Positions 2,738-55,900 of a stretch of 64,000 bases of DNA are shown here, piece after piece. Origin of the DNA: Azolla caroliniana (Eukaryota; Plantae; Polypodiophyta); assembly GCA_043228905.1 (NCBI GenBank), contig JBHGNT010000015.1:17546001-17610000 (forward strand). The letters are read 5' to 3'. The notes beneath the pieces are model-generated. The model made no database searches, was not told the origin of the DNA, and worked only from the letters and a program-made list of their open reading frames with translations. Every line of letters starts with the position of its first letter. The first letter of the stretch is position 1. Position numbers and translations under genes: made by a program.

Positions 2738-3263
2738 TGTCGTGAAGATTTTTGTCCATAGGGGGAAACCGGGGTGGAAAGGGTAAGTCGGTGGTGTGCA
2801 ACATGTGCACACGTATACTAGGAAATGGTGTATAGAAATAAGAGGGGAAATTTTATCCCACATTGTAAGGTCCCTCCCTCCTTGGGCTATAAAAGGAAGG
2901 GATGGGTCACTTATGAAGGGGTTGCCTATTTTTGAGTGTGAGTGAGCTATACCACATAGTTCTAGAATTCCTCTTCTTCTCGTTTTAGGGTTAGGGTTTC
3001 TTATTCATCTTCTTCTTCTTAGTTGGTTAGGGTTTCCTTATATCGTTTGGTGTGGCCTATGCGGCCACCATTGTTGTAATCATTCACTTGTTTTTAATAT
3101 ATCTTGTTGTGGATCTTGCTTCCATCTATTTTGGTCTATGCTTATGTGCTACTCTCCATCTTCTCATCATGTGTTAAGCTTCCATTTCTCATCTCATTCT
3201 TCTTCCTCCACTCCCTCGTGGTCCCGCCTCGGATCCTACATGCGCTTGCGGAATATCGCGACA
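2738..3263 (+). repeat. 5' LTR
   Basis: TGTCGTGAAG...ATCGCGACA; near-identical to 8743-9281 apart from a few substitutions and a 13-bp deletion in U5. Confidence 0.92.
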
Positions 3264-3267
3264 TATT

Positions 3268-3285
3268 TGGTGAACCCGACGTGAA
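3268..3285 (+). promoter_or_regulatory. Primer binding site complementary to tRNA-Trp
   Basis: TGGTGAACCCGACGTGAA is the reverse complement of the plant cytosolic tRNA-Trp 3' end as I recall it (TTCACGTCGGGTTCACCA); 4 nt after the LTR. Confidence 0.85.
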
Positions 3286-8742: not shown

Positions 8743-9281
8743 TGTCGTGAAGATTTTCGTCCATAGGGGGAAACCGGGGTGAAAAGGGCAAGTCGGTGGC
8801 GTGCAACATGTGCACACGTATACTAGGAAATGGTGTATAGAAATAAGAGGGGAAATTTTATCCCACATTGTAAGGTCCCTCCCTCCTTGGGCTATAAAAG
8901 GAAGGGATGGGTCACTTATGAAGGGGTTGCCTATTTTTGAGTGTGAGTGATCTATACCACATAGTTCTAGAATTCCTATTCTTATCGTTTTAGGGTTAGG
9001 GTTTCTTATTCATCTTCTTCTTCTTAGTCGGTTAGGGTTTCCTTATATCGTTTGGTGTGGCCTATGCGGCCACCATTGTTGTAATCATTCGCTTGTTTTT
9101 AATATATCTTGTTGTGGATCTTGCTTCCATCTATTTTGGTCTATGCTTATGTGCTACTCTCCATCTTCTCATCATGTGTTAAGCTTCCATTTCTCATCTC
9201 ATTCTTCTTCCTCCACTCCCTAGTCCAAGACCCTTGTGGTCCTGCCTCGGATCCTACACGTGCTCGCGGAATATCGCTACA
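8743..9281 (+). repeat. 3' LTR
   Basis: Direct repeat of 2738-3263, preceded by a PPT. Confidence 0.92.
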
Positions 9282-25115: not shown

Positions 25116-25163
25116 AGTATAGGGAAAAGGGTAGGCTGGAGGAAAGGAAAAATTGGTTCAAAC

Positions 25164-25591
25164 TGTCAGGAATGGTACTAAAGCAGGGATGGAATTAGTA
25201 CTAAGAAGAGGACGGGACTGCGTAAGATTCCCGAGAGAGGAAGTGAGAAGAGGAGAGAGAGAGAGAGATAGCGAGGATGAGAGAGAGAGAAAGATGATGA
25301 CAGTAGCTAATATATTATGTGAAAAGATAAGTACAAAGCGGCTGAGAGGCTTAAGACTGGCGTTGAACCAATTTGGTTCAACATAATTCCTAGTGCCTTC
25401 TTTTATAGTGTTGTTAGGAGTAATCCTGAAACTTCTAGAATGTTCCAGAGAAATCTGGAATATACATTACTTTCTTATAATAAAACATAAATGAAAATAA
25501 TATCTTATGAATTACAATAGATGGTGTGATGGTTAAGGGCTCGACCCATATACCATAAGGTCATGGGTTCGAGTCTTACCATCTCATGACA
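25164..25591 (-). repeat. 5' LTR of Tcn1-like copy 1
   Basis: TGTCATGAG...CCTGACA; homologous to 35306-35708 and 41205-41614; TATA on minus strand at 25407. Confidence 0.9.
25515..25586 (+). promoter_or_regulatory. tRNA-like Pol III type-2 promoter (A box + B box) inside LTR U3, antisense to the element
   Basis: A-box-like TGGTGTGATGG at 25522, AGGTC variable-loop-like segment, B box GGTTCGAGTC with T54 at 25568 (46 nt from T8). Confidence 0.6.
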
Positions 25592-27437
25592 GATAGAGCC
25601 TCAAGAGTTCAGGACAGATGCGACCAAGAGGGCCCTCAAATCGACAAATGAGAAGTTACGTCGATCGACTCGACACAAGAACATGGTGATCCAGTATGGA
25701 TACAATGAGTACATGGGCAATCACTATGTGTACATGTCAAAAGTGGCAGAAATCCGTGAGTTGGAAAGCTATGCGAAGGCATCACAGGATGCCAAGTGGC
25801 GATAGGCCATGGAGGAGGAAATGAGGGCACTTGATGCCGACAAGACATGGGTCTTGGTTGACCCTCCTTGACATTGCAAACTGATCGGATGCAAGTGGGT
25901 GTACAATATAAAGCACAACGCCGATAGTTCGGTTAACGCCTGATTAGTGGCCAAGGGATATGCATAGACCCACAACATTGACTACAACGAGACCTTCACA
26001 CCGGTGGTGGCGAAGATGACAACAATCCGTGTGGTGTTGGCGGTTCTCGCGGCAAGGGGGTGGCATCTCCACCAGATGGACATCAAGAATGCGTTTCTTC
26101 AAGGCAACCTTGAAATTTTTTTATTTATGGTCAATTCATGCAGAATCCAATAGTCAAGCACCTTCAATGTGCACATCAAATATTGTGATATGTGACCGAC
26201 ATGCAAGATCAAGGATTGTTGTACTGGAAAGGTATACCCAAACTGTTGGTTGGCTACACCAATGCCGACTAGGCCGAAGACGCCACGAATCGACGGTCGA
26301 CATCCGGTTTTATCTTCTCTCTTGGGAGCACGGTTGTAACGTGCAAAAGCAAAAAACAGTCGATACTGGCCTTGTCGAGCACCGAAGATGAGTACTGAGG
26401 AGCCTCCGTCACTACGTGCGAGGCAATATGGCTCAAATGGTTGTTGCAAGACTTATGGGTCGAAGTTCCCACTTTGATCCCGATCTACTGGGACAACATC
26501 AATAACATGCAAATGACAAAGAACCATGTGTTCCATGCTCGCACCAAGCACATAGAAGTACACTATCACTTTGTGCATGAGTTGGTCCTAAGCGATGAAG
26601 TCGAACTTCGGTATATTTGAACCGATTGGCCAACAAGGCGCTCGTACTGGACAAGTTACAACACTTTTCAAAGATGCTTGGGCTACAACATCTCGACATG
26701 CAATACTTGAGGGGGAGAACACCTGGAACAAGTAGGACAACTGGAGAGAAGAACAAAGGTAAAGAACCAGAGAAAGAGCCAGAAGATGACAAGAGGAGGG
26801 CTGAAAAAGAAGCTGAATCAATTGAAGAACTCGATACGTCTAAAAGAGCTAGAGCAGGCGGTAGAGTCAAGAAGGACAGAACCGACTAAAAGAAACAGGC
26901 CAGGACCAGGACATGGTCGGATGTGGTCAAGGGCCTGAAGGAGGACGAAATGGAGATGACCAATTCAGAAAAGAGTAGGAACTAATCGGAGACAGTTGAT
27001 TCGGTCATATGGTTTTGTGAACAATTAGGTAATTAACTACGGGTTAATTAGTATCTAATTATGTGAGTAGTTAATCACGTATGTGATTGAGCAACGAAAG
27101 ATTACGTGATTGTGTATGTGTATGTGTGTGAGAGGAAGAGAGGGAGGAAGTGTAGCTCATGGGGGATGATTAACAAGTGTAGCTCATGGAACTCTTACTT
27201 ATATTAAAAAGACATCATCAAATACAAAAATACCCACAATGAGGTACATATATATAGATCTTATGTGCAAGGGTGGACATGTGTGAGGAGAATATAGGTA
27301 CAAAGGTGTAAGTCCTATATTAAATGTACTTGGGAGTGGAGGATCTGGAATGTATCCCACTTAAGTACAAGGTTCTATTTAAGGCTTTAAGCTCAACACA
27401 CTAACTAGATTCTATCTAGGTAACTACTAAGTTACGT

Positions 27438-28160
27438 TGTCGTAGTTTATTTCGTACACTACGTGAAAAAGTAAAAATAATATAACCGATTTAATTACAT
27501 ATAAATAAATAAAATAAGAATATCAAAATATTTATCACGTGCATAGGGCAAGATTTGAACCTTGTAACTTCACATAGCCAAACCTCAACTTTACCATTAT
27601 GCTACCTTATCTTTAGTGTTTTATAAATAGATTTAATAAGTATAAGTCTTTTATTTGCGCCTACCTTTATTAAAAGGTAAATCATGCATTTTTAGAGTGC
27701 GTGAATATTTTATAGAAAAACGCAAGCAACTAAAAAGTGACTCATGCACATCTAGCGTGCATGAGCACTATATTTAGCAAATAAAAGCAAGGATTAGAAA
27801 AGCATCACATGCACATTTAGTGTGCATGAACATATTAGAAAAAAAAGCATGTAGCTATGCTTAGTCTCTCCCATCACTATATAAGGATGGGGAGCACATT
27901 GTAGTTTGTTGATTATTTTTCTATAATGATCAATCAATCTAAAATATTCGTGGGATTCACGAATTTGCTAAAATAATTCTCTCTTACTACCTAAATATTG
28001 GCTAAATATACTAAACTCGTGGGATTCACAAGATTCTTATCTTATAACTCTTTATACCTATTCTTTACTAGCCTTATTTGTATTTTTCTTCCTCCTAGTC
28101 CAAAACCTCAGTGGTTCCCACCCGACTCACGCAAACGATCCGGAGCCGAAAGGCACGACA
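27438..28160 (+). repeat. Solo LTR (4-bp TSD family) inserted in Copia B 3' LTR
   Basis: TGTCGTAG...GGCACGACA; TSD ACGT (27434-27437, 28161-28164); empty site visible in the sister LTR at ~52775. Confidence 0.88.
27541..27610 (-). promoter_or_regulatory. tRNA-like A/B box module in solo LTR U3, antisense
   Basis: Minus strand TAGCATAATGGT ... GGTTCAAATC, T8-T54 distance 45 nt. Confidence 0.55.
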
Positions 28161-28828
28161 ACGTCGTTGACTAAATGGCTAAACTTAGTTGAGCTTGATA
28201 TCTCAACATGCCCCCTCAAGCTCAATTATGAGGCGTCCGACATCCGGTTCTGCTTTAGGTGTTGTCCGACTATTTGGCGTCGGTTTTTGTGCAGCTTTCA
28301 GCGTCGGCATTTCCGTGGCAGTTTGGGTTCCTCCCCCTCAAGCTTGTGACGAAGGCTTGTAATGTTAAATGGTTGAAGGCCAAGTGCTTGCATCTCGTCA
28401 TCCATAGTTTCCATCCTTCGGTGGTCATGAGCCGCTTTTGTAAAGCTTTCGGGCTCTGGTTCGGTGGCCCCCTTCATCACAAAGGCATAGTGATGGACCA
28501 TATACTCGTTGTAGTCGAACCGAGTGACCAAGTTCTTCTCTCTAAATGAACATCGAAGTTTTTCGTTTGCCAACGTGAGCGCCTTCTTTACTCCAAGTGT
28601 CCACATAATGGGTACACCAAATTCACTATCTAGTGAGCGAGCCGACACATTCGAATCACTTTCGTCGAGGTGGTCAACTTCATATTCACGCATCTTACCT
28701 TTCCCTTCATATTCACTCCAATCTGGCCCATAGCCAAGACGTGCTTGGAATTCTTGAAGGTTCATGTGGTCCACTTAGATCGGTAGATCTTGGATTGTCC
28801 ATTGGTAAAGGACTTTCCCAAATATCGT

Positions 28829-29939
28829 TGTCGTGAAGATCCGACACTATGTGCGGATCGTGAGGCGAATCCGCCGGGGTTCTGGACCGGAAGGACTCGA
28901 AGCACGCACTAGCTTTAGCGAGAAATGATTTAAGATGGATTGAGGGAGAGAGATTGAGATAAGACTAATATGGCGAGAGATAGAGAGTGAGAGAGATAAG
29001 ATCGAACTTTTAACTTTAGATTTGAGAGACAAGATATATAATCAAATGGAGAACGGATTTTTCTTCTTCTTAAATTCTTGAAAAAAAACATAACATAATT
29101 TTGATCTTTTTCATCCATCCTTTTATAGATACTCCCATGCATATGATGCATGCGGGTACAAGACATGCATGGAATGCATGTGATGCATGTGATGCATGTT
29201 TGCCATTTGGCGCTCATGCATCACATGTCACTCAATCAAGCTCTAATATGAGAATTTACATGTAAAAGTATAATGATAGGAAAAACATTTCTAAGGCAAA
29301 GTCATAGCCTAGTGGTAAGTCTATAGACTCTCAATGTGGAGGTATAAGGATCAAGTTTTCTCTTTCACTCTATTTTTGAATATACACGCACACACGCACA
29401 CACATATATATATGTTTTTTATTATTTATGTATTTTTACAAGGCATTCCTTCGTCCTGTCGTTGTCTTGTCGGCTCCATTGGTCGCGGTCGCCGGGTGAT
29501 GTCAGATGCCAAATCCCGTCGGTCGCCGTCGTCGTCAGATTCGTCCAAAACACATAGTTATATGCATTTGGCTACATCCATTCGTTAAGTCATACAACTT
29601 AACCTTCCTATGCTCCACACATAAACACAAAGATAATAGCTTTTGTTCTATCTTATATATGGTGGGTTCCTTATTTGTCCGTTCTATGTGGGATATCACA
29701 TATTTTTCTCTTCTTCTTTGCAAATTTCGTACCCACATAACTTGACACTTAGATGTCCGTTTCCTACATAGTAAAGCACATTCAGAAGCTCTTCAAGACC
29801 TCCATCTTTTTGTACCAAGATATTAAACTTATTTAAAATAGTATCTTTACTATTATTTTTTATATTTCGTGAGAGGAACCACGCTCGATTTCATATGTTT
29901 CTTACAAGTTTCACACTATCGCTAAAAATCTTCACGACA
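28829..29939 (-). repeat. 3' LTR
   Basis: Direct repeat of 42063-43172. Confidence 0.95.
29298..29370 (+). promoter_or_regulatory. Degenerate tRNA-like A/B box module in LTR U3, antisense (second copy 42532-42604)
   Basis: TAGCCTAGTGGT at 29305; GGATCAAGTT (degenerate B box) with the T54-equivalent 45 nt downstream. Confidence 0.45.
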
Positions 29940-30011
29940 TCCACCCCCACCAAACTACACGTCCTCCGGTATGTGCCAAGAAAAGAGAGTGCAAGATTTC
30001 AGTGACAGTAA

Positions 30012-33000
30012 TCAATCAAATTCTTCCACGTCTTCATTCGTATCCGTCGTAGTATCTTCATCGTCGAGGTCATCGAGGTTAGGATCCTTGTCTTGTCTTT
30101 TCTTGAAAATCTTTACTCTTTTCCCCGCAATGGGTATGGCCAGCCTTGATTCATCTAACTCCGCAAGGTGGTATGTTGCATTGTCGTTGGCACTTATCAC
30201 TATATATGGTCTGAACCATCTTCTTGCGAACTTCCTTGTTGTACTGTGTTGATTGTCAAGGCTGTTGTCGTAGACCAATACCCAATCTCCTTCTTCGATC
30301 TTCTTGGGACATAGTCGATGCGTCTTGTCGAACCAAATTTTGTTCTTCACTCGGGCTGCCTCCAACATTTTTCGCGCTTTTTCTAGATCTTCAGGTCTCC
30401 TTTCAAGTTGCCTTATCCGTGCTGCTAATAACTCTTCTTGGCTCATCTCGTTCTCCCATGGTATCGCTACCCATGAGGCGATCGTCCTTTCGATGGGCAT
30501 TACCGGCTTTTGTCCATACATAAGCTCTGTTGGCATATACCACGTCACTGAGTTGTGTGTTGTTCTGTCGGCCCACAAGGCATAGGGTAATAGTCGTGGC
30601 CAATTCCCTACTCGACTGTTGCATGCTCGTACGATGGCTTTGACGATAGGTCCATGCCCTCACTCGATCTTCCCATTCGCTTCTGGATTATAGGCAGTCG
30701 TGAGGGAGAGCTTCACACCCAGTCGTTCGAAGAGCTCCATTGCTTCGTGTGCATCCAACTCCCCTCGGTCGGCAACTATCTTTCCCACACATCCGTATCG
30801 ACAAACAACCTCTTCAAGTAGAAATTTGCAAATAGCCGACGTTGTTTTATTTGTCAAGGTCCGTTCTTCCACTTGATTTGTCAAGTCTTCTCTTTCCAGA
30901 GCTAAGAACTTCATTTGTCTCACTCCCATTGGCATTGAGACCAGATCCACCATCCATTTGAAGTGTATGGTGAGTGGGTATGTCGGTCGTAGCTCATCAT
31001 GATGACGGATATTCGAATGTACTTGGCATGTTTCGCATCTGGTCACGAAATGGAGTACATCTTTGTACATGCTTGGCCACCAGTACTTCTCCTTCAACTT
31101 CTCGAACGTCACCCATGTTCCTCTATGACCTGTCCAAGCACTCTCGTGGAATTCAGTCATTAGCATCACTTGCTCTTCTTTCTTCACCACCACTCGACGT
31201 GGTATTCCTGTCCTTCTTTTTGGGTGTCACTAAAGGAATCCTCCCTTCAAGAAGTATTGGTAGGCTTTCTTCCGGATTCGTAGGGCCTCCTCCTTCGTCA
31301 ACGAAGCATCCGTTGTCATCGTTCTTAGGAATCTGTCGATTAGTAACCACTCCCCTTTGTACTCGTCCTCGTTGAAGGCATGAGGGTTAGCATGCCCTTG
31401 TCTTCCGCCGATAGTGGAGCCATCTTAAAGAAGTCGAGGGTGACGTCTTCAACTTCCGAAACCATGTCACCTTCATTCTCAAATCTTGCCCTCGACAGCA
31501 TGTCAGCCATGGCGTTCTTCTTCCCTGCAATATGGCAGATCTCTGGGTTTAAAGACTTGATATAGGCGATCCACCTTAGCATAGCTAGATCTGGTGTCGC
31601 ACATCTTGAGATCATTCCGAGGATTGGGAGACAATCTGTCTCAATTATTACTTTCAATCTGATTAGGTAGTCTTTGTCTGTCTTCACTGCCGACACAATA
31701 CCCCAAAGTTCTCGCTTGACTTGGGCGTATCTTTGTTGTCGTTCGCTAAGAACCTTTGCTCCGAACTGGATGGATTACCGCACATTATCTTCTCCTTCTT
31801 GGTTGATGACCCACTCGATTCCGGTTGGGCTCGTATCGACAGTCACATAAATCAGCTTTTCTTCGGTATAGTCGGCTTTTCTTAGTGTTGGAGCTTCAAG
31901 AAGTAGTTTCTTCAATCTTCGCATCGTGTTCGTGTGCTCATCTCACCATTCGAACTTCATTCTTTTCTTTAACAACCCATATAAAGGCTCGGCGACATGA
32001 GCGTAGTGAGGAATCCAAATATAGTAAAATGTGCATGATCCAAGGAACCTTCGAACCTCCGTTTGGTTTATGCATTCTTCTTTCATGTCCTGGATCGTGT
32101 TCACCTTTGATGGCGAAGGCTTCCGGCTGTATGCTCCACATAAGTGACCTACCACCAAGATCTCTGGTTGCCCGAATGCGGATTTCTCTCCCGAAAATGT
32201 CAAATTCGCATCTTCAAGCCTTTGAAGCACCTTCTCGCAATCTTTCATATGATCTGCGACGAACTTTCTACACCCTTCCTTATCTTTAGATTCATCTTTC
32301 TCCTCATCCGAACATCCTTTTATCTGAATATCATCCAAGAATGGCATCGTGATGTCCGGGATGCAATCCTTCAAGACCTTGTTCATGGCATTCACTATAT
32401 GTGCCACCGAGTTCATTGCACCTTGAGGTAAGGTACACATCTGCACGAGCCCGATCGGAGTCCTCATGGTTGTAATGTCACGACTGTCGATCGTCAATTG
32501 GAATTGGTCGTATCCAAAGTAGAGATCGCCAATGGAGTAGATGGACCGCTCCGCAAACGCTACGGCAAATTCATCCACGCTCGGACCGATTCTAGCATTC
32601 CGAATTGTCACCTTATTGACGGGTTGAAAATCTTGGATGAATCGCAATGATCCATTCTTCTTCGGCACCGTGAACCACCTATTAGAGTCAGGAGCATTCG
32701 ACGGTTCTAGAATACCCATATTCACTTTCTCCTTTAAGAGCTCGATCAACTTCGAAAGGTGTGCTCTTGGAACTAGTATCGGTTTCAAATTCCAAGGCAC
32801 ATGCGGCACCGTGAAGATCACCATCGGCTCTATAATCTTTGGGTTGGCACATCCGATTTCGTGGGGAGAGAATGCAAAGGCTTTCCCATGCCTTTCAAGC
32901 ATTTCACGAAACTTTCGCTCCTCTTCAGGGAGGAGGAAATCCTCCTTTCCAACTCGTAGCTTTCCCTTCGTCTCTTCGGTGAAGACATGACCTATTGCCT

Positions 33001-33421
33001 TCGGATCCCTTAAGCTTGGATCATTCGTGACTTCCTTCATCTTTTGCCAGCTATCTTCCGGTAGCGGAACCACAACTGGCTTGATCTTCTTATCCACCTT
33101 TTTATATTTTGTGTTGACTTCAGCTTCCTCCATCAAGATGCCACAATAGTATTCATCGATGATAGCGTACATGTTGACGGAGTTAACCGAAATCACACGT
33201 TGGTCGTGAAGATAGCTCAAGTCCACGACGTCCTCGATTTCGCCGATGGTGTCGTTAAATGAGGCTTCTTCCATAATATGAGTCATGAACTCTTCTTCTT
33301 CTATTATGTTTTCTTCTTTCAGCATCTTCTCGAAATCTTGTATCCGACGCTTGTCCTTCTTGTCGGGTAGTACTAGTTTACATGCACCACTAGGTGTGAC
33401 ACATGTTGCTTCTCCTCGCAA
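30012..33421 (-). pseudogene. pol: Gypsy pol RT-RH-INT (frameshifted)
   Basis: PHVPWNLKP, NRWFTVPKKNG, PFLDD, IETDCLP, HRG...CETCQ, TTAYNPEANGKIE, KFARRWFRPY. Confidence 0.92.
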
Positions 33422-35394
33422 TCCACGTGCTCTATTTTCTTGTGGGGACTTGTGATTGCTCGGACTATTTGTCCCCCATGCTTCAATAGTCAGCTCTAAA
33501 AATCCTAGGATTCGCCTCCAAGACTATCACGATTCCTTTCATGATTGGCTCGCACCGTTAGGAATTGGACCGATCTTTGGTTGTCAAGACTCTTTATTCG
33601 TGCGAAGGCTGCTCCATTGTCGAACACTTTGGTTTCCATCCGAGATGATGTGATATACGGTTGTCCTAAGATGACAGGATGCGACGCCGATTCTTGCACG
33701 AAGAAGTGTTGATCCATCTCCACATCCCCGATCGTGACTTTAACATTGGGACAAGCTCCGTACAAGTCCTCCGTAGTCTTTGTTGCCACGCGAATCTTCC
33801 ATCGTTGATTTGTATTGATTGGCCATCTTCTTTTTTTGTAGAAGTCGGTTGACATGAGGTTGATCTCCGAATCGTGGTCGATCAAGGCTACCACGGTCTC
33901 TTTCTTCTCCCCGATCTTCACCGGTGTCTCCGTTGTCGCTCATGCCCAATGAGGTCGAGTATAGTGGCTATCGACCATTTTTTCATCAACTTCGTCTCTT
34001 TCCATCGTTATGGTATTTTCTTTCACTTTTAGTGACTTCTCTTCTTCTTCATCTGATTGTTGCCTTTTTCGCTTTACAAGGTCCACAATCGTGTCGTGGA
34101 ACTCCTTCATAATGCCGAGTAATTCCCTCAAGGACAAAGTCACGTGGTTGTCAAGAACGCGTTCCTCGACAATCTTCTTCAGGTCTTTTGTCTGCTCTAT
34201 GTCCAACCTTAGCTTATAGGTAGGCATAGTCCTTGTCTTTCGAGCAGGGTCTTTGACACCAATCTTCACGGCCGAACCGTTTCTTCGACTCGTTTGCTCG
34301 ACTCCGCTTTTTGGCTTGCGTCTCCTTCCTCCATTTGCAAGGGTCGACTCGTCTCTGCATCTTCTTTCTTTTTCGTGTTCCTTGTTTCATGTCTCTTTGA
34401 TGGGCCTTGCTCTTCTATTCTTTTTGTCTTTTCTTCGACGAACACCTCGTGGTTGTTGCATATCACTTCCACGAGTATGGTGTTGTCATCCACCGGATCC
34501 GACCACCCGGTTATGCTTTGCACGCTTCGGTCCGCAAGCTCTACCTCGTTCGATGTGACCTTCCCCATCTTCTCATACTCGAGAACGAAAGAACAAAACT
34601 TGCCTCCCACTTTCGTAGCTTCATTTCTCTCTTTCCCGACTCTTATTCCGGTCGTTGCAGAATAGTGCATCGCATCCAGATGAGTCGCCTCAACATCTCC
34701 CATAGATTTCTTCATTCCTCCTCTTCCGAAATTTACCCACAGGGGTCTTCGAGTTTCAGTCGAGTAGATCATGTTGTCGTCTATGTATACGATATTTTGT
34801 CGGATCGCCTCTCGAAGGATCGCGCAATCCCTTCTCATGTGGTCCATGCTATCGCACCACACGCATCTAAAGGGTTCTTTCCCTTTGGGGCCCCGATGAT
34901 TCGTGTTGGCTAGTGTGACCATCTCGAACTTCTTTGCCAGTTCTTCGATGATGTCATCACCAATCTTCTTTTCTTCCACGTTACTTTGGTTTGGCGGTTC
35001 AGCTACTTTCGGCGGTCTTGCTTTCTCCGTGACAATCGATCCCGTCAAGTCGGTGTCATCAACCCATTGGCGATGCTTGTCGAGCCTATTACACGCCCAC
35101 TTCACCGCGATCCAGTCCGCTACAAGCCCATTTGCTTGGGTATCGTCTTCAAGAAGAGTCCCCAATTCTCGTCTATCCTTCATGTCTACAGCTTTCAAGA
35201 AGTACAAAGTCTTGTCCTCTTCAAGCAGCACTTGGTCCGTGTTGGGGAGACGACGAAACATTTGGTCGAATTCGTCGTACACCCTCGAAGCGCTCATCTT
35301 CTTATTTTCAAGAACAGTACTAAAGTAGAGAGAGAATTAGTACTAAAGAAGAGAAGCACTATTAGTACTAAGAGGACGGGACTATGTAAGATTC

Positions 35395-35434
<40 letters not shown>

Positions 35435-35700
35435 GATGATAACAGCTATATATTATGTGAAGGATAAGTACAAAGTGGCTAAGAGGCTTAAGACTGGCGT
35501 TGAACCAATTTGGTTCAACATAATGCCTAGTGCCTTCTTTTATAGTGTTCTCAGGAGTAATCCTTAAGCTTCTAGAATGTTCTAGAGAAATCTGGAATAA
35601 AGGATAAATGAAAATAATATCCTATGAATTACAATAGATGGTGTGATGGTTAAGAGCTCGACCCATATACCATAAGGTCATGGGTTCAAGTCTTGCCATA

Positions 35701-38700
35701 TCATGACACTATCCCTCCCTTAAGAAGACGAGTGGAACGAGTCGACGCTGATTGAGGATCAGGTTTGTCGGGATATTGTCGGTGAAAATCAACAAGAAGA
35801 TCTTGAGCAGCATTGGCGACATACTCGACGGGCTCCCAAGTACGTTCGCTCGGACTATAGCTGAGCCAATAGACCAAATAATAAAGTTTGTTGTGAACAA
35901 ATTTGGAGTCAAGGATGGCAGCAACTTCATACTCCGGGCCGGTGTCAAACTCAAGGAGGGGCAGCGGTGGTGTAACACGATCGGGAATAGTGTTTGCTTG
36001 ATAAGGTTCAAGAAGAGAACTATGGAAGACCGGATGTATCCGAAGATGCAGAGGAAGATCAAGGTGAAACGTGACATCATTAACCTTACCGGTAATACGG
36101 AAAGGACCGAGTCGGCGATAATCCAACTTGTCGCACGGTCGAGTAGTCTTGATGTAAGAGCCAAACTCGATCTCCAATGGCAAAAGAGGAGGGCAGCCGA
36201 TGACGATCCGCGTAAGTCTTTTGTGTCTGTTGAGCATGACAAAGATGAATAGAGAGATCCGTCTGGATCTTGCGTAGTCTCTCCAAATGATCCTCGGCAC
36301 GAGGATTGGTAGGTAGCTCCAGGGTGTCAATCACCGACCAGCGAGGATGAGAACCGGTATAAGCGTAGAATGGGGAGACTCGAGTCGAGGAGTGAACAAC
36401 ATTATTATACGCAAACTCCACAAAGTGAAGAATCTCAGCCCAATCATCCTGTTTATAACTCAGGAAACACCAGAGATATTCCTCCAGCGTTTGGTTTGTT
36501 CGTTCCGCCTACCCATCGGTCTGAGGATGGTAGCCGGAGGAGAGGTTGCAAGAGACCTTGAGCATCTTGAAGAGATGCTGCCAAAATTTGGAGACGAATT
36601 GTGGTCCTCGATCACTAATGATACTGTCTGGGAGGCCATGATGCCGAAATACCTCACACATGACACGGGCGGCGGTTTCCTCGCTAGTGATGGCCTTAGT
36701 ACACGGCACAAAATGTGCCATCTTCAAACCCCTTCGAGACCGGCAGATCTATGATAAAGTCAAGACAAAAAGACTACCACGGATTACTTGGAATCGGTAA
36801 GGGTTCCAACAAGCCATATGGATGGTGTCGTAGCATCTTTGCTCAGCAACAAGCATCACAGGTCCGAACGTAGTCATAGACAAAACGTCGCATATGGGGC
36901 CACCAAAAGATCGTTGAACTATATCCAACGTCTTAGTGCTACCGAAATGTCCCGCCATATGGGTGTCATGACAATTTTGGACGATTTGAAGGCGACAGGA
37001 GCAATCGGGGACATATACAAGCTTTTTAAAGAATAGCAAACCATCATGATATTCGAATTGTCGGTAGTCCATACCTGGTTGTTGAGACTGGGAACAGGAT
37101 TCCCGAGAGGTATCAATATGCGCCAGAATGTCTTGAGCAAAATTGTTCGTCTTCAAGTTCGCACGTGTGGTGTCGGTAATCTGGGAATCCATTGGGGTGT
37201 GAAAAATCCATGTTGTGTGCAATCGTGTTGGTTCCAACATGACTTGCTTTTGATTATCGAATGTTGGATCACCAGAACGAGGTGCAAGATATGAACGCCG
37301 TGATAGTACATCTGCCTTTCCTTGCTGCTTCCTCGGTCGATATGCGATTTTGAAATCAAAACGTGTGAGGAATTGAGCCCACCTAGCTTGCCATCGATTT
37401 AGCACATGAGCATTCTAGAAATAAGAAAGATTCTTGTGATCATTGAAGACGATGACCTGATGTGGAGAGCCCTCCAAAAAATGCCACCATTGCACAAATG
37501 AATCCACGATGGCCAATAACTCCTTGTCATGTATTTCGTAGTTGATTTCCACAGCATCGAATTTGCGCGAATGGAAAGCCATAGGATGTAACTCTTCTTT
37601 ATCTCCTTGTTGAGAAAAGATGCTACCAAGGGCGAAATCTGATGCGTCGGCCTCCATGATGAATGGTTTGTTTGTATCCTCATGAGCTAGAATAGGTGAT
37701 GATGTAAAGGCTTTCTTAAGATGCCGAAAAGCCATGTCCGCTTCATTGGACCAAAGAAATGCTTGTCCCTTCTTCGTAAGTTGTGTGAGAGGTAAAATAA
37801 TCTTCGAGTAATCCTGTATAAACTTGCGGTAGAAGTTAGCAAAACCTAGAAAACATTGTACATCTCGTACTGACCGTGGAATTTGCCACTCTAGCACAGT
37901 TTGGACTTTAGTTACATCCATGGAGATGCCCTTTGATGAGATAATGTAGCCTAGAAATTCCACTTGCTTGCAGTCAAAGCTACATTTTTCTAGCTTGGCA
38001 TAAAGACCATTCTCACGAAGTCGGTTTAGTACTAATAGTACATGAGAATCATGCTCTTCCTGGGTCTTCGAATAAATCAAGAGATCATCCAAATAGATCA
38101 TCAAACAGATATCCAAGAGGTCTCTGAATATATCATTTGCCTTGTGTTGGAAGACTGTGGGTGCATTGGTTAAACCGAACGGCATAACCATATATTCGAA
38201 ATGCCCATACCGCGTGCGAAAGGCGGTCTTCCATTCATCTCCCAGTCGGATCCGCACGAGGTTATACTCTCCTCATAGATTGATTTTTGTAAAAAACTTG
38301 GCACCATTAACTCGCTCTAAAAGACTTGATATAAGAGGAAGTGCATACCTATTCCGGATGGTGACCTTATTTAAGCCGCGGTAATCAACGACGAGACGAA
38401 GTGAGCCATCTTTCTTCTTGACAAAGAAGATAGGTGCTCCGGCCGGAGATTTCGAATGACAAATAAACCCGCTTGCCAAGTTCTCCTCTATGTAGGCTCG
38501 AAGGACTTCTAACTCGGTGGGTGAAAAGTTGTAGATTGGTTCCCATGGTGGCTCTACTCTTGGTTGTAAATCGATGGGACAATCGTAGGGACGATGATGA
38601 GGAAGAGTACCAGCTTTTACCTTGTCAAATACGTCGGCATAAGGATGATATTTCACCACAAGTTGCACTAAGGATTCCTCCTTAATATCGCTGGAAGGAT

Positions 38701-39249
38701 GTACTGATATGGCGAATAAGAACATTGCCTCCTTGTGTCCTTTTCGCGTAGTTGATGTAGTGAAATGGTCGAAACTCGATGAGTAAATTCTGGGGGTTGT
38801 CGATATCGAACTTCTCTTGTTCTCCAATCTATGTCTGGATTATGTAGTTCAAACCAAGGTAATCCCAAGACAATGGGATGCTCCGAACTACTAATTATAT
38901 TAAATGATACTGCACACACAAAACTACCTAGGACAACTTGAATGGGTTCTGACTCTTCTACAATATTCCCGGAAGCAATGGGACGACCATCAATGACTAC
39001 TATAGATGCGGGGCAAGGAAGTTTTCTTAAGGATATCTGAGAAGCTTGGGCAAAATTTCGATCCATGAAACAGGAATTGGCTCCGGAATCTAAAAGTGCT
39101 AGGACTTGTATTAGGGGAGTACTTTTAGTACTAACCATGACTTGGGCTAGGAACACATTGCTAGCTTGCTTGGAGGGAATGGAACCACTAATGGGTTGTA
39201 CAGATCTAGGGTTGTCCAACCAAACGACTCCTATTTTGGCTGGACTCAA
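35701..39249 (-). pseudogene. pol: Tcn1-like pol with C-terminal chromodomain
   Basis: ALLDSGAN, IYLDD, EADASD, GYHPQTDG, EYEVAAILDS...YYLVYW...ERTWEP (~35760-35935). Confidence 0.92.
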
Positions 39250-39495
39250 TCGTTTAACTCTTCATCTAATTGACTAAGGATTTCAAATTTTTTTGAGATA
39301 CTTGGGCTATTAGTACTATTAAGACTATCAGACACTCTATTAGTACTATTAATACTATCATATACTCCTAAGGGAAGAATTGACTCGGGTTTAGTACAGG
39401 CTAAGATTTGATTTACCTATCTTCTTGGCCTATGAGGACAATTGATTGCAATATGCCCTGGTCCACCGCAATAAAGACATAATCGATTTGCACGT

Positions 39496-40229
39496 TGTCA
39501 TGAAGAATTTCGGCTAGAGGCGGAAATCGGGAAATGTTGGCTACATCGGTGGGGTGCAGCATGTGCGCTCGCCCTTGTACATTTAGTGTGAATAACGAGG
39601 GCGCCTTTATGGCGCCGAACAGTAGTTAAGTCGGGGTTATCCCACATTGTAACGCATCCCTCTCCTTGTTCTATAAAAGGAAGGGAGCGCCCCTTTACGA
39701 AGGGGTTGCCCATTTTGTATTAGTAGGGTATATCGTTAGATGAAGAGACGTTCTCTCTTCCTCTTTCTCTCTTGTTTTAGGGTTTCTTCTTCTCCTCCTC
39801 CTCCTCTGCTTCTTCTTCGTCACTCTATGAGTCTAGCTTGATACCTACAAGTTCTGTATCTGCCCTGTCTCCTGTGCAAGACCCCGCTCGGCGCGACGAG
39901 CCCGTGAGCTCCCCGACCGGCGGCGTGGCAGTAGAGGATTGTTGTATCTTGCTTCTTGTAAATATACCTATGGAAGATTCTGCGTTTTTGGTGTCTGTGT
40001 GGGTGTTTTAGTGTTTCCTTACTTCTGTTTCTGTACATAAGCGTGAGTGGGGTCGACACTGTGTGTGCGTGTGTCGGCCAGGGGTGCGCGCGTGTTCTTC
40101 TCTCCCTCCTTCTCGGTTGTTTCCGGCGTCCAGGAAATGGTGAATCACGACTTCCTACGCTCCGTCACTCCCTAGTCCAAGAACCCCGTGGTCCCGCCCT
40201 TCTACACGCACGCGCGAAACTTCACGACA
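39496..40229 (+). repeat. Solo LTR (4-bp TSD family) inserted in Tcn1-like gag
   Basis: TGTCATGAAG...CTTCACGACA; TSD ACGT (39492-39495, 40230-40233); empty site GGCACGTCGTCG at ~24201. Confidence 0.92.
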
Positions 40230-41293
40230 ACGTCGTCGTTGTTTTTCTTCTTCCGATAACGAGCCACGTCGACGCATGGTGTCGATCTCCATCGGTGTCA
40301 GAGTATTTTCTTGAGGTACGTCACGTGCAAACGGTTTAGCCGCGACTGAGGCATAACTGGGCTCCGGCCTAGAGCGTAGTATTTGTAATTGATGTTCCCA
40401 ACGCCGTTCAAAAAGGCGGTTGTCGCATCGGACCGCTCGACTAATTGCCTCCGTAAGAGACTTTGGTTCTTCGGGGAAGGTTAAAAGTAAATCTTTGACA
40501 TCGTTTCGCAGGCCGTAGCGAAACTGCTCCATGAGTGCCTGATCATCCCAGGGGATATCTGAGGCGAGTAGACGAAAATCTGCCGCGTAGGCAAAGGCTG
40601 GACGATCGCCTTGACGCAATCGTTGGATCTTGTTGATCGTTGTCCTGTCGGTGTCTCCAAAATAGTCTTTAAACTTACTAATAAAATCTTCAAAGTTATT
40701 AAGCAAGGGCGATTGTTTTTCTAGAAGCGAAGCGAACCATGCTAAGGCTAAGCCGCTAAGCAACGTGCCTATTAGGCCGACTCAGGATGCATCAGTGGGG
40801 TATCAGGAAGGATGCATTTGGATGACTAATTGTACCTAATTAAGGAATCCCCGGAATTGCGATTGCGTTCCATCAAATTTCACAGGAAGTCCAATCTTCG
40901 GCTCCTTATGAAATCCTTGGGGACTTGATCCCTGTTGTTGCAATGCTGCTTCGAGTTGTTGTGCCTGTAACGCTAACTCCCCATGTTGTTACTGCGTTTG
41001 TTGTTTTTCTAGAGCGATTTGTTGCAGATCCCCTATCAGTCGTTGGTTTTCTTGTTCCAAGGCAACAAATTTTTCTTTTAGGAACTGTAGCTCAGAGAAA
41101 ACGGATTGATATTCTTGGGCGCTAATAGTAGCCATAGTATAGGGAAAAGGGTAGGAGGATGAGGGAGAACGACAAGTAGGCTTGAGGAGAAAATTGGTTC
41201 CAACTCTCAAGAATAGTACTAAAGCAGAGAGAGAATTAGTACTAAAGAAGAGAAGTACTATTAGTACTAAGAGGACGGGACTGCGTAAGATTC

Positions 41294-41330
<37 letters not shown>

Positions 41331-42036
41331 GGAGGATGAGAGAGAGAGAAGGAGATGATGATAACAGTTATATATTATGTGAAGGATAAGTACAAAGTGG
41401 TTAAGAGGCTTAAGACTGGCGTTGAACCAATTTGGTTTAACATAATGCCTAGTGCCTTCTTTTATAATGTTCTCAGGAGTAATCCTTAAGCTTCTAGAAT
41501 GTTCTAGAGAAATCTGGAATATACATTAATTTCTTATAATAAAACATAAATTAAAATAATATTTTACAAATTACAATAGATGGTCATGGGTTCGAGTTTT
41601 GCCATATCATGACACTTATTCTTCTTTTCTATCCACTTCATCAAGGCATGTCGAGTCATCCTCGACAAATCTTCCGTCGCGAACTCCGCTAATATCGCTT
41701 TCTCGAAGTCCGACCACGTTGTCTTCCCTTCTTGAAGCTCGATGACACGCCTTTGGATGTTGTTGGTGACAACTCTCTTGAAGCTTGTGATTTGACGTGC
41801 TTCAAACACGTCCCGTTGATTCATCTCCCTTTTGTATGCATCAAGGAACTTCGTAATGTTCCTTCCGTCGAATTGACCCTCGAGCTCCACGACGGCCTTC
41901 TCCACGCTCACATCATTGTCTCGAGATCTCATCATTTGTTCAACGATCAGCATCATCCTTTCGAAGTCTCCCGCTTGATTGCTTGAGGACGGCATCTCCA
42001 AGTGTTGGTCTCGACTTGATCCTTCCTACCGCCTCG

Positions 42037-42054
42037 TTCACGTCGAGTTCACCA
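42037..42054 (-). promoter_or_regulatory. tRNA-Trp primer binding site
   Basis: TGGTGAACTCGACGTGAA, 8 nt from the LTR end. Confidence 0.8.
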
Positions 42055-42062
42055 CTTGATTA

Positions 42063-43172
42063 TGTCGTGAAGATCCGACACTATGTGCGGATCGTGAGGT
42101 GGAACCGCCGGGGTTCTGGACCGGAAGGACTCGAAGCACGCACTAGCTTTAGCGAGAAATGATTTAAGATGGATTGAGGGAGAGAGATTGAGATAAGACT
42201 AATATGGCGAGAGATAGAGAGTGAGAGAGATAAGATCGAACTTTTAACTTTAGATTTGAGAGACAAGATATATAATCAAATGGAGAACGGATTTTTCTTC
42301 TTCTTAAATTCTTGAAAAAAAACATAACATACTTTTGATCTTTTTCATCCATCCTTTTATAGATACTCCCATGCATATGATGCATGCGGGTACAAGACAT
42401 GCATGGAATGCATGTGATGCATGTGATGCATGTTTGCCATTTGGCACTCATGCATCACATGTCACTCAATCAAGCTCTAATATGAGAATTTACATGTAAA
42501 AGTATAATGATAGGAAAAACATTTCTAAGGCAAAGTCATAGCCTAGTGGTAAGTCTATAGACTCTCAATGTGGAGGTATAAGGATCAAGTTTTCTCCTTC
42601 ACTCTATTTTTGAATATACACGCACACACGCACACACATATATATATGTTTTTTATTATTTATGTATTTTTACAAGGCATTCCTCCGTCCTGTCGTTGTC
42701 TTGTCGGCTCCGTCGGTCGCGGTCGCCGGGTGATGTCGGATGCCGGATCCCGTCGGTCGCCGCCGTCGTCAGATTCGTCCAAAATACATAGTTATATGCA
42801 TTTGGCTACATCCATTCGTTAAGTCATACAACTTAACCTTCCTATGCTCCACACATAAACACAAAGATAATAGCTTTTGTTCTATCTTATATATGGTGGG
42901 TTCCTTATTTGTCCGTTCTATGTGGGATATCACATATTTTTCTCTTCTTCTTTGCAAACTTCGTACCCACATAACTTGACACTTAGATGTCTGTTTCTTA
43001 CATAGTAAAGCACATTCAGAACCTCTTCAAGACTCCATCTTTTTGTACCAAGATATTAAACTTATTTAAAATAGTATCTTTACTATTATTGTTTATATTT
43101 CGTGAGAAGAACCATGCTCGATTTCATATGTTTCTTACAAGTTTCACACTATCGCTGAAAATCTTCACGACA
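42063..43172 (-). repeat. 5' LTR
   Basis: Direct repeat of 28829-29939, followed by the PBS. Confidence 0.95.
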
Positions 43173-53489: not shown

Positions 53490-55900
53490 ATTGTTTCTCT
53501 GTTAATGTCCAATTGAGCTAGTTGTGTTTTTCGACAAAGGTTTCTTCGACATTTCGATGGTTGTCTATTTAGTGGCTTGGTTGTCTTCTTCATGATAGGG
53601 AATGTTGTGTGTGATGGCGGTTCAGGTTAAGAAGGTTCTAACTCAGTGGCCGGTTGCAGAAGGCAGGTTGTAATTGCAATAGAGCTACCCCGATTTAATG
53701 CAATGTAGCCATCGAATGTAGTCGGGTTTGGAGCCCACTAGATTCGCCTTCACCGGATTATTTTCGCCCTTTGTGTTGTTTCATAGCCTTTTGTGATTAA
53801 TCATGTGATTCATTCTTGTAAAAACCATAGAAATTGTGGTATTAAGCCTAACCATTGTATAACCCTATTTTGTATCATAAGTTGACATGTATATTATTCA
53901 CGCATTAATCATTGTTCGGGTCGTTGCAATAATTGCATCTCGAACCCTAATTGTGTTCGACAAGTCAAAAGTTCGTCAGGAGGGAAAGGTTGTTGAGTCA
54001 AAAGCTCGATGAGAAAAGGAAGTCATGTGAAACTCGACGAAGAAAGGGGGCGGCAAGTGAGCACTCAATGAGCCCCCAAAGCTTTACGAGTGAATACTTG
54101 ACGAGTGAACACTCGACGAGGAGCCTTCTTAAAATGAGCGTGAATCTTCAACTTCCTCATGCCTTCTCACTCCCCTGTCCAAGATCCCCATTCTTCCTTA
54201 TTTCCGATCTTCATTTTTCTTAACATTAATTGAGATTCCAATAGTTGGTATTAGAACGAGATTAACATTTTCTTGTTTTGGCTTGTTGTTTTGGAGCAAT
54301 TAACAAAATGTGTTTTCGTGATCCAAGAACAAGCAATTGAGAATTTCAAGGTTCTCCATTTCTCTCTCTTTTTTCTCAATTATGTTAATTTTTCTTTTCT
54401 TTTCTCTCCTACGAACATTAGATGTTTAGTTTGTCAATATGTGTGATTTTATGTGTTGTTTTTGTCTCGTGTTTAATACTTGTTCAGGGTTTTGCCATTA
54501 TTGCAATAGTCATAACACAATGTTTTATTTATTCTTATTCAAAAAATAAATAAATGAATTTATTTGTGTTTTTCTTATATGTACATATATGCATATATTA
54601 TTATTATTGCACTCCAATAATAGCGGGATGTTGCCTACTTGGGGACGCCCGCACCAATGCTAGCCTTGTAGGGTCTACATTGTAGTAGCGTGACTTGTTG
54701 CAAAGCAACATATATCGTGTAGCAGGTCTATGTCACCAATGTAGCAACGTGACCTATTCCATTGTCGTGAGCAACCCATTAAGCTGTCTATTGATAGCGA
54801 CAAACCCGCCAAGTTGACTATTGATTGTCGTTGTGATGTAGGGAGCACAAAGAAGGAATTAAGCACGGTCCATATTAAGTTGTTGTGAGTTGGATCCCAA
54901 AATATGACAAAAAGGTTTAGTTCAATTGGTGAGATCTTGCGTTATGATTGGGAGATCAAGGGTTTGAGGTTTATTTTTGCTAGCTTTAGGTGCTAGAGAA
55001 AAAGTAGATCATGCAATTGGAAAAAAAAGAGCGAGGAGCATGCCAAATTAAAATAAAAAAGCACCCACTAATTTTATTGGTGAAAAAGAAAGAAAGAAAT
55101 ATTAACGTCTTCAAAAATCAAATTTGGCCAATGAATCCTATTAAAGGGTAAAGGGTGAGGAGAGCTCAAGGTTGTGAATCAAGAGGGCGTATAAGACAAA
55201 CAACGACAACAGGTGATGTGGTGGTTGTTCATTAGAACGTTGCACCAAAACTCAAGGATCTCATCTTGAAGCTCTACCTGTGATCTTTTCTTCTCCATTT
55301 ACTCCTATGTACTTACCTTTATTTTTGTCTTCTTTTCCACTCCATGTAATGGAGTCGAGAATTCACTCATTGTACTTGCTCATTTTTAAGACTTTAGTGT
55401 TGCTTATAGTTTTAATACAAATATATTCCAATATATTTTGCAAATCCATGTTTAAAATTTTCGTGGCCAAACAAGGTGTTGGATTTTTCAGCTTGGAGTT
55501 TTGAGTTCGAGAATCAAAGTTACAAAATTTTGACAAAATCGATGAATAATGGATCGCCGAACCATCTTTTCCAGAAGCTCATTTCATCAACACAAGGACT
55601 CCACCTTGAGCATCACAACCCTAAACCCTAAACCCTGTGGGAAAAATTGCATCGAGTCATAACTTTTCAAACAACCGGAGTCGAACTTGCTATTTTGGTT
55701 GAAGCCAACATCCTGTCCATCGAATGACAACCAAAAACGCAATTTTCTAATTACATTTGTACATCTCCCAAGGCTATATTCATAATTAAAGAAAAGGGGA
55801 GTTTTCGCCTCTAGTCAAAGGTCCCCTATTTGATAGAACATTCGTGTCCCGAATGCAAATGCTCCTCCTTACCCGTTGTTGACACTCCACCACCACATTC
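53490..55900. mobile_element. Old degenerate LTR-element remnants, unresolved
   Basis: CCAATA GT TGGTATTAGAAC resembles an LTR end plus degenerate PBS-Met at 54246; CATTCGGGACACGAATGTT...AGGGG on the minus strand at ~55820-55855 resembles a Gypsy pre-PPT region; no ORFs. Confidence 0.35.

What the first reader, a model, noticed from the sequence alone, without database searches (positions are those of the whole stretch)
25515..29370. Three unrelated LTR families each carry an antisense tRNA-like Pol III A/B-box module in U3: candidate TFIIIC insulator or antisense system
Seen: A-box and B-box motifs with T8-T54 spacing of 46, 45 and 45 nt (the spacing of a real tRNA) occur in the Tcn1-like LTR (25515-25586; also 35632-35703), the solo LTR 27438-28160 (27541-27610) and the Phygy-like LTR (29298-29370; also 42532-42604). 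The surrounding LTR sequences look unrelated. In all three the module is antisense to the element and upstream of the Pol II TATA box (at 25407, ~27878 and ~29127), pointing away from it. Known: tRNA genes and TFIIIC-bound B boxes act as heterochromatin barriers in yeasts, and Cassandra TRIMs carry 5S-derived Pol III promoters in their LTRs. Inference: convergent capture of tRNA-derived promoters, either to insulate LTR promoters inside methylated nests or to drive divergent Pol III transcripts. I know of no description of this pattern, but I could not search the literature.
Basis: partly seen in the sequence, partly recalled or inferred. Interest (0 to 1): 0.82.

Follow-up and report, generated by a model that had tools for sequence, protein, structure and literature searches.

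The report
Backward tRNA promoters in retrotransposon LTRs
Two unrelated lineages of protein-coding plant jumping genes carry, in their end repeats, a worn copy of a tRNA gene's internal promoter that points backwards, away from their own promoter; it likely acts as a docking site for the tRNA-gene transcription factor TFIIIC and might help shield the element from silencing, but neither binding nor transcription has been shown.

Summary
The A/B boxes are at the stated places and exceed chance (3 pairs with at most 1 mismatch vs 0.023 in shuffles). They are a fixed part of very high-copy LTR families, not stray SINE copies: 43 of 45 aligned copies of the chromovirus (Tcn1-type) LTR keep both boxes at 45-46 nt. 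The spacer is tRNA-like, the cloverleaf is lost. Corrections: the other two LTRs both show Phygy marks (NCGN target sites, related module), so there are likely two origins, not three; the third module has a damaged B box; one Tcn1 copy lacks the A box; a further Phygy-type family and four Copia-type LTRs lack the module. Selection on the boxes is only suggested (inherited changes 4 vs about 12, P 0.004-0.18 by test; raw conservation no higher than flanks). tRNA-derived promoters in LTRs are known (Helenus/TRIMp3), but there they are sense and in non-coding elements; antisense, in coding elements beside a Pol II TATA box, was not found in print. The scan noted tRNA-type boxes in chromovirus LTRs of another genome. 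Best reading: a retained TFIIIC site (0.45); neutral relic 0.3.

The parts
25164..25591 (-). 5' LTR of a Tcn1-type chromovirus (LTR1a)
   Evidence: TGTCA...TGACA ends; internal gag/RT/RH/IN homologous to the 35306-41614 element
25515..25586 (+). tRNA-derived module, antisense, at the very start of U3; A box 25522-25532, B box 25566-25575; folds as a rod hairpin
25399..25407 (-). TATA-like box of LTR1a (Pol II promoter, inferred), 115 nt from T8
   Evidence: sequence
25428..25445 (.). heat-shock-element-like array (GAA/TTC units) between TATA and module
   Evidence: motif recalled
35306..41614 (-). full Tcn1-type element, TSD CTTAT, chromodomain at the ORF end, LTRs 94.8% identical over aligned columns
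35632..35703 (+). module in the 3' LTR (A box 35639, B box 35683)
41589..41598 (+). B box left alone in the 5' LTR after a 36-nt deletion that removed the A box
27438..28160 (+). Phygy-type solo LTR (LTR2), TSD ACGT, inserted in a Copia-type LTR; orientation inferred from TATA and U5 likeness
27541..27611 (-). tRNA-derived module with consensus A box (27604-27594) and B box (27561-27552); T4 run at T8+76 and T-rich tail
28829..43172 (-). Phygy-type element, LTRs 28829-29939 and 42063-43172 (98.0%), TSD TCGT, tRNA-type PBS; hosts the Tcn1 insertion
29298..29368 (+). module with consensus A box (29305) and damaged B box (29348-29357, 2 mismatches, T4 run at its end); T5 at T8+68
42532..42602 (+). 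same module in the 5' LTR

Best explanation
The modules are tRNA-derived A/B-box promoters fixed in the U3 region of two lineages of coding LTR retrotransposons, antisense to the element, and they are likely kept as DNA sites for TFIIIC that would help hold the neighbouring Pol II promoter open in repeat-packed chromatin. Shown: position, orientation, family-wide presence, tRNA-like spacer, loss of the cloverleaf, 45-46 nt spacing. Inferred: two separate captures, probably as backward insertions of a tRNA-derived SINE or pseudogene into one LTR, copied to both LTRs by reverse transcription; weak purifying selection on the boxes. Predicted, untested: TFIIIC binding, barrier or nucleosome-excluding action, and some divergent Pol III transcription as a by-product. 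The backward orientation would be tolerated because Pol III then moves away from the TATA box rather than through it.
For: 43 of 45 Tcn1-type LTR copies fetched by an anchor outside the boxes have both boxes; 37 of those 43 have <=1 mismatch in total; spacing 46 (39) or 45 (4). The only inherited indel between the boxes is 1 nt. Inherited (internal-branch) changes at the 12 fixed box positions: 4 vs 12.5 expected after GC/AT matching, P 0.01; 25 bootstrap trees median P 0.021. Subfamily turnover falls on degenerate positions (R9, Y11, N12 with all four bases). 28 of 45 B boxes are GGTTCGAGTC and their changes are nearly all single-copy, many at the CpG; the Tcn1 module matches the extended tRNA-internal B box GTCnnnnGTTCRAnYC given in PMC3159450. 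A diverged LTR in L173 and the Phygy-type LTRs share boxes and spacing but neither the hairpin nor flanks, so the boxes are the common feature. TFIIIC-only sites act as barriers in yeasts (PMC3159450 passage).
Against: Raw conservation of box positions is not higher than flanks (Mann-Whitney P 0.52, Fisher P 0.24); all changes 23 vs 32.8, P 0.12; the inherited-change test weakens to P 0.04-0.18 with other backgrounds or a tree built without the module. G10 to A is inherited in two subfamilies. The recently inserted Phygy-type element (LTRs 98% identical) has a B box with 2 mismatches in both LTRs, and contig depth over this module is about 5,000 against 98,000-146,000 next to it (X1), so few family copies match it at 80% (depth is a rough measure). 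Of 3 LTR2 relatives found by BLAST, 1 is near intact, 1 has 2 mismatches, 1 is broken. A further Phygy-type family with 95% identical LTRs and four Copia-type LTRs in the same nest lack the module. No binding, chromatin or RNA data.
Confidence: 0.45

Rival explanations
1. Neutral relic: an old tRNA-derived SINE or pseudogene fell backwards into U3, hitch-hiked with successful families and is slowly decaying without function.
For: Free-standing tRNA-like relics of the same grade occur at window 54911-54981 and in L132; the Phygy-type modules are followed by T-rich or simple-repeat tails like SINE ends; raw conservation equals flanks; a damaged B box sits in a young element and module-free families thrive.
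Against: Inherited changes are depleted at fixed box sites in most tests; boxes and spacing persist where the acceptor stem, anticodon stem and flanks have turned over.
Confidence: 0.3
2. The selected thing is a folded antisense strand: a Pol III hairpin RNA made from the LTR (as with SINE RNA or foamy-virus U3 miRNAs), or a hairpin in minus-strand cDNA next to the polypurine tract.
For: The Tcn1 module folds into a rod hairpin, z -4.4 for LTR1a, median -3.0 over 42 distinct copies. In Watson-Crick stem pairs, inherited changes are 8 G-U-making and 0 A-C-making on the tRNA-sense strand; all changes 29 of 40, P 0.011 against background rates. tRNA-derived SINE RNAs refold into stem-loops (PMC2408557 passages). 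Phygy-type modules have T runs just after the unit.
Against: Two-sided compensatory change appears in only one cell of the pair table; Fisher test of the asymmetry P 0.20; the other strand folds nearly as well (median -2.9) and a control U3 stretch also folds (-2.2); several stem G's are box positions; no hairpin in Phygy-type, L173 or free modules; the Tcn1 LTR holds no T4 terminator after the module.
Confidence: 0.2
3. Landing pad: the boxes attract Pol III-targeting elements, as tRNA genes do for Ty3 or TRE5-A.
For: Isolated B boxes suffice as TRE5-A targets (PMC3159450 passages); earlier unchecked scan notes report this in another genome.
Against: 0 of 45 aligned copies carry an insertion between the anchor and the A box, apart from a 1-nt one; no insertion upstream of the five window modules. 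Rare events would be missed.
Confidence: 0.05

Closest known systems
Helenus / TRIMp3 (Kojima 2024, PMC10886601; read parts 1-4 of 6 of the text, search passages, supplement part 1 of 11 and two supplement hits)
   Same: [quoted passage not shown]
   Different: Helenus are non-autonomous TRIMs of 311-1263 bp; in the consensus LTRs I saw (supplement part 1 and Helenus-1_SMo, read by eye) the tRNA part is in sense orientation in the 3' half before a T run, and is thought to be the element's own promoter. Here the hosts encode gag-pol, keep a TATA box, and carry the module antisense in U3. The paper notes that 'not a few LTRs' in Repbase hold tRNA-like parts but analysed only TRIMs, so unpublished Repbase entries may already include such cases.
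Cassandra TRIM (as summarised in PMC10886601)
   Same: Small-RNA-gene-derived Pol III promoter fixed in plant LTRs.
   Different: 5S type 1 promoter, sense, drives the element's own RNA, non-autonomous.
Simian foamy virus U3 miRNA cluster (PMC3993851, passages)
   Same: Pol III promoter elements and hairpin RNAs inside U3 of an autonomous retroelement that itself uses Pol II.
   Different: Not tRNA-derived units, expression shown, terminators defined; orientation not checked in the passages read.
ETC / TFIIIC-only sites and tRNA-gene barriers of yeasts (PMC3159450, passages citing the primary work)
   Same: B-box DNA elements acting on chromatin without a functional tRNA: the proposed mode of action.
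   Different: Host loci, not carried by transposons; function here is untested.
Tcn1 and Phygy lineages (PMC6317226 and PMC2864245, passages)
   Same: Chromodomain and predicted self-priming (Tcn1); NCGN target site (Phygy).
   Different: The passages read mention no tRNA-like part in the LTRs.

Membership tests
Helenus / TRIMp3 | tRNA-derived sequence with boxes A and B inside the LTR | tested here: met
Helenus / TRIMp3 | non-autonomous, short (about 0.3-1.3 kb), no coding capacity | tested here: not met
   hosts are 6.3 kb and about 8 kb elements with gag/RT/RH/IN or RT
Helenus / TRIMp3 | promoter in sense orientation, able to transcribe the element | tested here: not met
   antisense in all modules of the window and in the 45 aligned Tcn1 copies; Helenus sense by eye
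Functional tRNA gene | cloverleaf pairing and covariance-model score above threshold | tested here: not met
   acceptor 1-4 of 7 and anticodon stem 1-3 of 5 pairs in the LTR modules vs 6.8 and 4.4 in 76 real tRNAs; Rfam <=11.5 bits; ARAGORN 0
Individual SINE insertion | present in few copies, own TSD and tail | tested here: not met
   in 43 of 45 Tcn1 copies; even contig cover over the LTR2 module in 4 of 4 runs. A T-rich tail follows the Phygy-type modules, so an ancient SINE origin stays open
Type 2 Pol III promoter (active) | consensus A and B box at workable spacing | tested here: met
   met for Tcn1 (37 of 43 with <=1 mismatch) and LTR2; doubtful for LTR3 (2 B-box mismatches)
Type 2 Pol III promoter (active) | purifying selection on box positions | tested here: inconclusive
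   P 0.004-0.18 for inherited changes, P 0.12-0.52 for all changes
Type 2 Pol III promoter (active) | TFIIIC/Pol III occupancy or transcript | not testable with these tools
   no chromatin data; only contigs of DNA runs could be laid
Tcn1 chromovirus (LTR1 host) | chromodomain after integrase | tested here: met
   PF00385 E 1.3e-11
Tcn1 chromovirus (LTR1 host) | no tRNA PBS, self-priming | tested here: met
   the bases after the 5' LTR are complementary to a palindrome about 30 nt after the TATA box; mechanism inferred
Tcn1 chromovirus (LTR1 host) | RT/IN phylogeny within Tcn1 | not tested
   no reference set held; the name rests on the two features above
Phygy (LTR2, LTR3 hosts) | 4-bp NCGN target site duplication | tested here: met
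   ACGT and TCGT; rule from PMC6317226
Phygy (LTR2, LTR3 hosts) | RT phylogeny within Phygy | not tested
   only shown that the RT is 26% identical to the Tcn1-type RT; LTR2 is solo

The most novel reading that the evidence does not exclude
Autonomous LTR retrotransposons of two distant lineages in a non-seed plant each captured a tRNA promoter backwards in U3 and keep it under selection as a portable TFIIIC barrier (with, in the chromovirus, an antisense Pol III hairpin RNA), so that thousands of mobile Pol III-factor sites protect LTR promoters from silencing and shape the host's chromatin.
Probability: 0.3. Interest if true: 0.78.

Novelty: new variant of a known kind. Interest (0 to 1): 0.52.

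Why it matters
If the boxes bind TFIIIC, a very abundant plant retrotransposon family would carry its own chromatin boundary, a simple and testable way for an element to stay active inside methylated nests, and the host genome would hold thousands of extra TFIIIC sites. It would also extend the TRIMp3 idea from 'Pol III promoter for a short parasite' to 'Pol III factor site serving a Pol II element'. If neutral, it is still a caution for tRNA and SINE annotation in such genomes.

Tried and rejected
No whole genome is held, so the genome-wide family scan and orientation test could not be run. ARAGORN at lowered thresholds is noise (49 calls at ps80, only 1 of the 5 modules among those shown). 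Rfam over the whole window: 4 chance hits, no tRNA. Viral contigs: 0 matches to a Phygy U5 motif, no relatives of two proteins. Prokaryote genomes: 3 matches to the 21-nt motif, about the chance level, not followed. No RNA holder listed; this says nothing on expression. Protein atlas unavailable. My first alignment dropped 5 copies by a B-box filter, which was circular; it was redone without the filter. The per-LTR shuffle line for LTR1a shows 0 observed because the module lies at the edge of the segment; not used. A single shared origin of the Tcn1 and Phygy modules was considered because of a similar 3' tail (up to 8/11) but the spacers are no closer than random tRNA pairs (6-10/20 vs mean 9.0): not supported, not excluded. 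Stricter scoring does not detect LTR2-LTR3 homology. The isotype of the source tRNA could not be fixed (best viral tRNA matches 36-43 of 71-72, varied isotypes); the profile came from viral tRNAs picked by a box pattern, not from plant tRNAs. Sequence look-ups in earlier findings gave nothing.
Full report
Setting. The window is a nest of LTR retrotransposons from a land plant, likely a non-seed plant: Tcn1 elements are reported from mosses and club-mosses and Phygy from Physcomitrella (PMC6317226, passages); unchecked notes on the same genome say moss or fern. I did not determine the host. No whole genome was held. Self-alignment and Pfam define a full chromovirus at 35306-41614 (TSD CTTAT, chromodomain E 1.3e-11), a second, 3'-truncated copy with its 5' LTR at 25164-25591, a solo LTR at 27438-28160 and a non-chromovirus element at 28829-43172. 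Their RTs are 26% identical.

Observation. In 300 shuffles that keep local dinucleotide content, pairs at 45-46 nt with <=1 mismatch average 0.023 (observed 3) and with <=2 average 0.55 (observed 8, two of them in gag DNA and one free-standing at 54918). All are antisense and point away from the TATA-like box, 115, 274 and 178 nt from T8. The third Tcn1 LTR has lost the A box by a 36-nt deletion.

tRNA origin without tRNA structure. A position profile from 76 viral tRNAs, scored on the spacer only (boxes excluded), ranks 10 of 10 modules above their shuffles (P 0.0004-0.07) and not the gag control (P 0.68); scores stay far below real tRNAs (medians 21 and 26). The variable loop reads AGGT in 7 of 8 LTR modules. 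Acceptor and anticodon stems are lost, ARAGORN finds nothing and Rfam gives at most 11.5 bits.

Family-wide, not a stray SINE. Contigs of four DNA runs (three organism labels per call) cover the LTR2 module as deeply as its flanks and the Tcn1 module throughout; depth is only a rough guide, but is thousands of times that of single contigs. The LTR3 module is the exception: depth about 5,000 against 98,000-146,000 beside it in X1, and 3 against 5,600-28,000 in X13. A metagenome scan anchored 60-85 nt outside the boxes gave 51 loci. Dropped: 6 whose contig ends early, 2 truncated inside the module (L160, L167), 1 duplicate insertion (L163). The remaining 42 plus 3 window copies were aligned: 43 of 45 hold both boxes, 21 with no mismatch, 16 with one, 4 with two, 2 with three; spacing 46 in 39, 45 in 4; 2 lack the A box by deletion. 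The anchor selects for close relatives, so deeper diversity is under-sampled. One more distant LTR with the same ends, heat-shock repeats and a module of the same lineage (13/20), again antisense, sits in L173; it was found by a box scan, so its boxes are not independent evidence of conservation.

How many origins. LTR2 and LTR3 have NCGN target sites (ACGT, TCGT), a Phygy mark, TGTCG...CGACA ends and colinear parts. Their best local alignment begins at the module (score 48; shuffles 95% 39, max 51) but is not significant with stricter scoring. At tRNA positions 32-51 modules are 11-16/20 identical within the Phygy-type group, 12-20/20 within the Tcn1-type group and 6-10/20 between groups, against a mean of 9.0 for viral tRNA pairs; at two positions where nearly all family copies differ from the solo LTR (27567, 27570) they agree with LTR3, which raises that pair to 15/20. 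So two origins are likely. Two antisense draws do not show an orientation bias. A third Phygy-type family (2738-3269, 8743-9281) has no module (best 6 mismatches), nor have 4 of 4 Copia-type LTRs tested (best 4-5).

Selection. Against: fixed box columns are no more conserved than other U3 columns in raw terms (P 0.52 and 0.24), and all changes are 23 vs 32.8 expected (P 0.12). For: changes on internal branches, which passed through replication, are 4 vs 12.5 (P 0.01), median P 0.021 over 25 bootstrap trees (range 0.004-0.092), and P 0.04-0.18 with narrower backgrounds or a tree without the module. Turnover sits on R9, Y11 and N12; G10 to A and A14 to G are the exceptions. The only inherited indel between the boxes is 1 nt. 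The tree rests on 210 columns, so this is a hint.

Hairpin. The Tcn1 module pairs its spacer with the B-box arm (z -4.4; median -3.0 over 42 distinct copies), with a strand bias of changes towards G-U on the tRNA-sense strand (8 vs 0 inherited; 29 of 40 in all, P 0.011 by rate, P 0.20 by Fisher) but only one two-sided change in the pair table. Phygy-type, L173 and free modules do not fold beyond chance. Phygy-type modules have T runs after the unit; the Tcn1 LTR has none, and 3 of 6 3'-LTR copies in the loci have a T4 run 36-37 nt beyond the LTR. What all families share is boxes and spacing, not fold or terminator, which is why I rank a DNA site above an RNA product.

Mechanism. Likely: a tRNA-derived SINE or pseudogene entered U3 backwards, once per lineage, and was copied to both LTRs by normal replication (inferred; same route as proposed for Helenus, PMC10886601). 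TFIIIC would bind the boxes 100-270 nt upstream of the TATA box and could limit nucleosomes or silencing spread, as TFIIIC-only sites do in yeasts (PMC3159450 passage). Binding and effect are untested.

Literature. Ten searches found Helenus/Ajax as the closest description and no report of antisense tRNA-derived boxes in U3 of coding plant LTR elements; the library lacks most subscription papers and Repbase. Seen: PMC10886601 parts 1-4 of 6, passages, supplement part 1 of 11 and hits; passages only of PMC6317226, PMC2864245, PMC3993851, PMC3159450, PMC2408557 and bioRxiv 10.64898/2026.03.01.708851 (supplements not seen). The supplements of PMC6317226, which hold Tcn1 and Phygy elements, were not opened and may bear on how far the module extends.

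Verdict. Real feature; two likely origins; a new variant of tRNA-promoter-in-LTR; function open, with a TFIIIC site the best single bet (0.45). Interest 0.52.

Noticed in passing
window 25428-25445, 35570-35582, 41492-41504; L173 about 1320-1420: Heat-shock-element-like GAA/TTC arrays in the Tcn1-type U3: 4 of the 5 perfect three-unit matches in the window; tandem repeats of the motif in the diverged L173 LTR. Suggests a heat-inducible family (motif recalled).
   Followed up: partly
window 25150-25163 and 25358-25378: Bases after the 5' LTR are complementary to a palindrome about 30 nt after the TATA box: Tf1-type self-priming signature.
   Followed up: partly
window 35701-35703: The stop codon of the Tcn1 integrase-chromodomain frame lies inside the first 8 bases of the 3' LTR, so the module follows the stop directly in the element's RNA.
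   Followed up: no
window 29457-29498 (LTR3 positions 442-483): Inside LTR3 lies a stretch resembling the U5 end of LTR2, and LTR3 starts with the same 15 bases as the module-free family at 2738; LTR3 may be a composite of two Phygy-type LTRs.
   Followed up: no
window 54911-54981; L132 about 845-922: Free-standing decayed tRNA-like units with A/B boxes at 45-46 nt outside any recognised LTR; possible SINE relics.
   Followed up: partly
window 2738-3269 and 8743-9281: Third Phygy-type LTR pair (95% identical) with tRNA-type PBS and no module; contains short TTAGGGTT repeats.
   Followed up: partly
window about 55617-55637: Three telomere-like AACCCTA units in AT-rich DNA.
   Followed up: no
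window 25360-25369, 35497-35506, 41419-41428 (minus strand): A second, sense-oriented perfect B-box match (GGTTCAACGCC) overlaps the self-priming palindrome near the predicted Pol II start of each Tcn1 LTR; no matching A box; may be chance.
   Followed up: no
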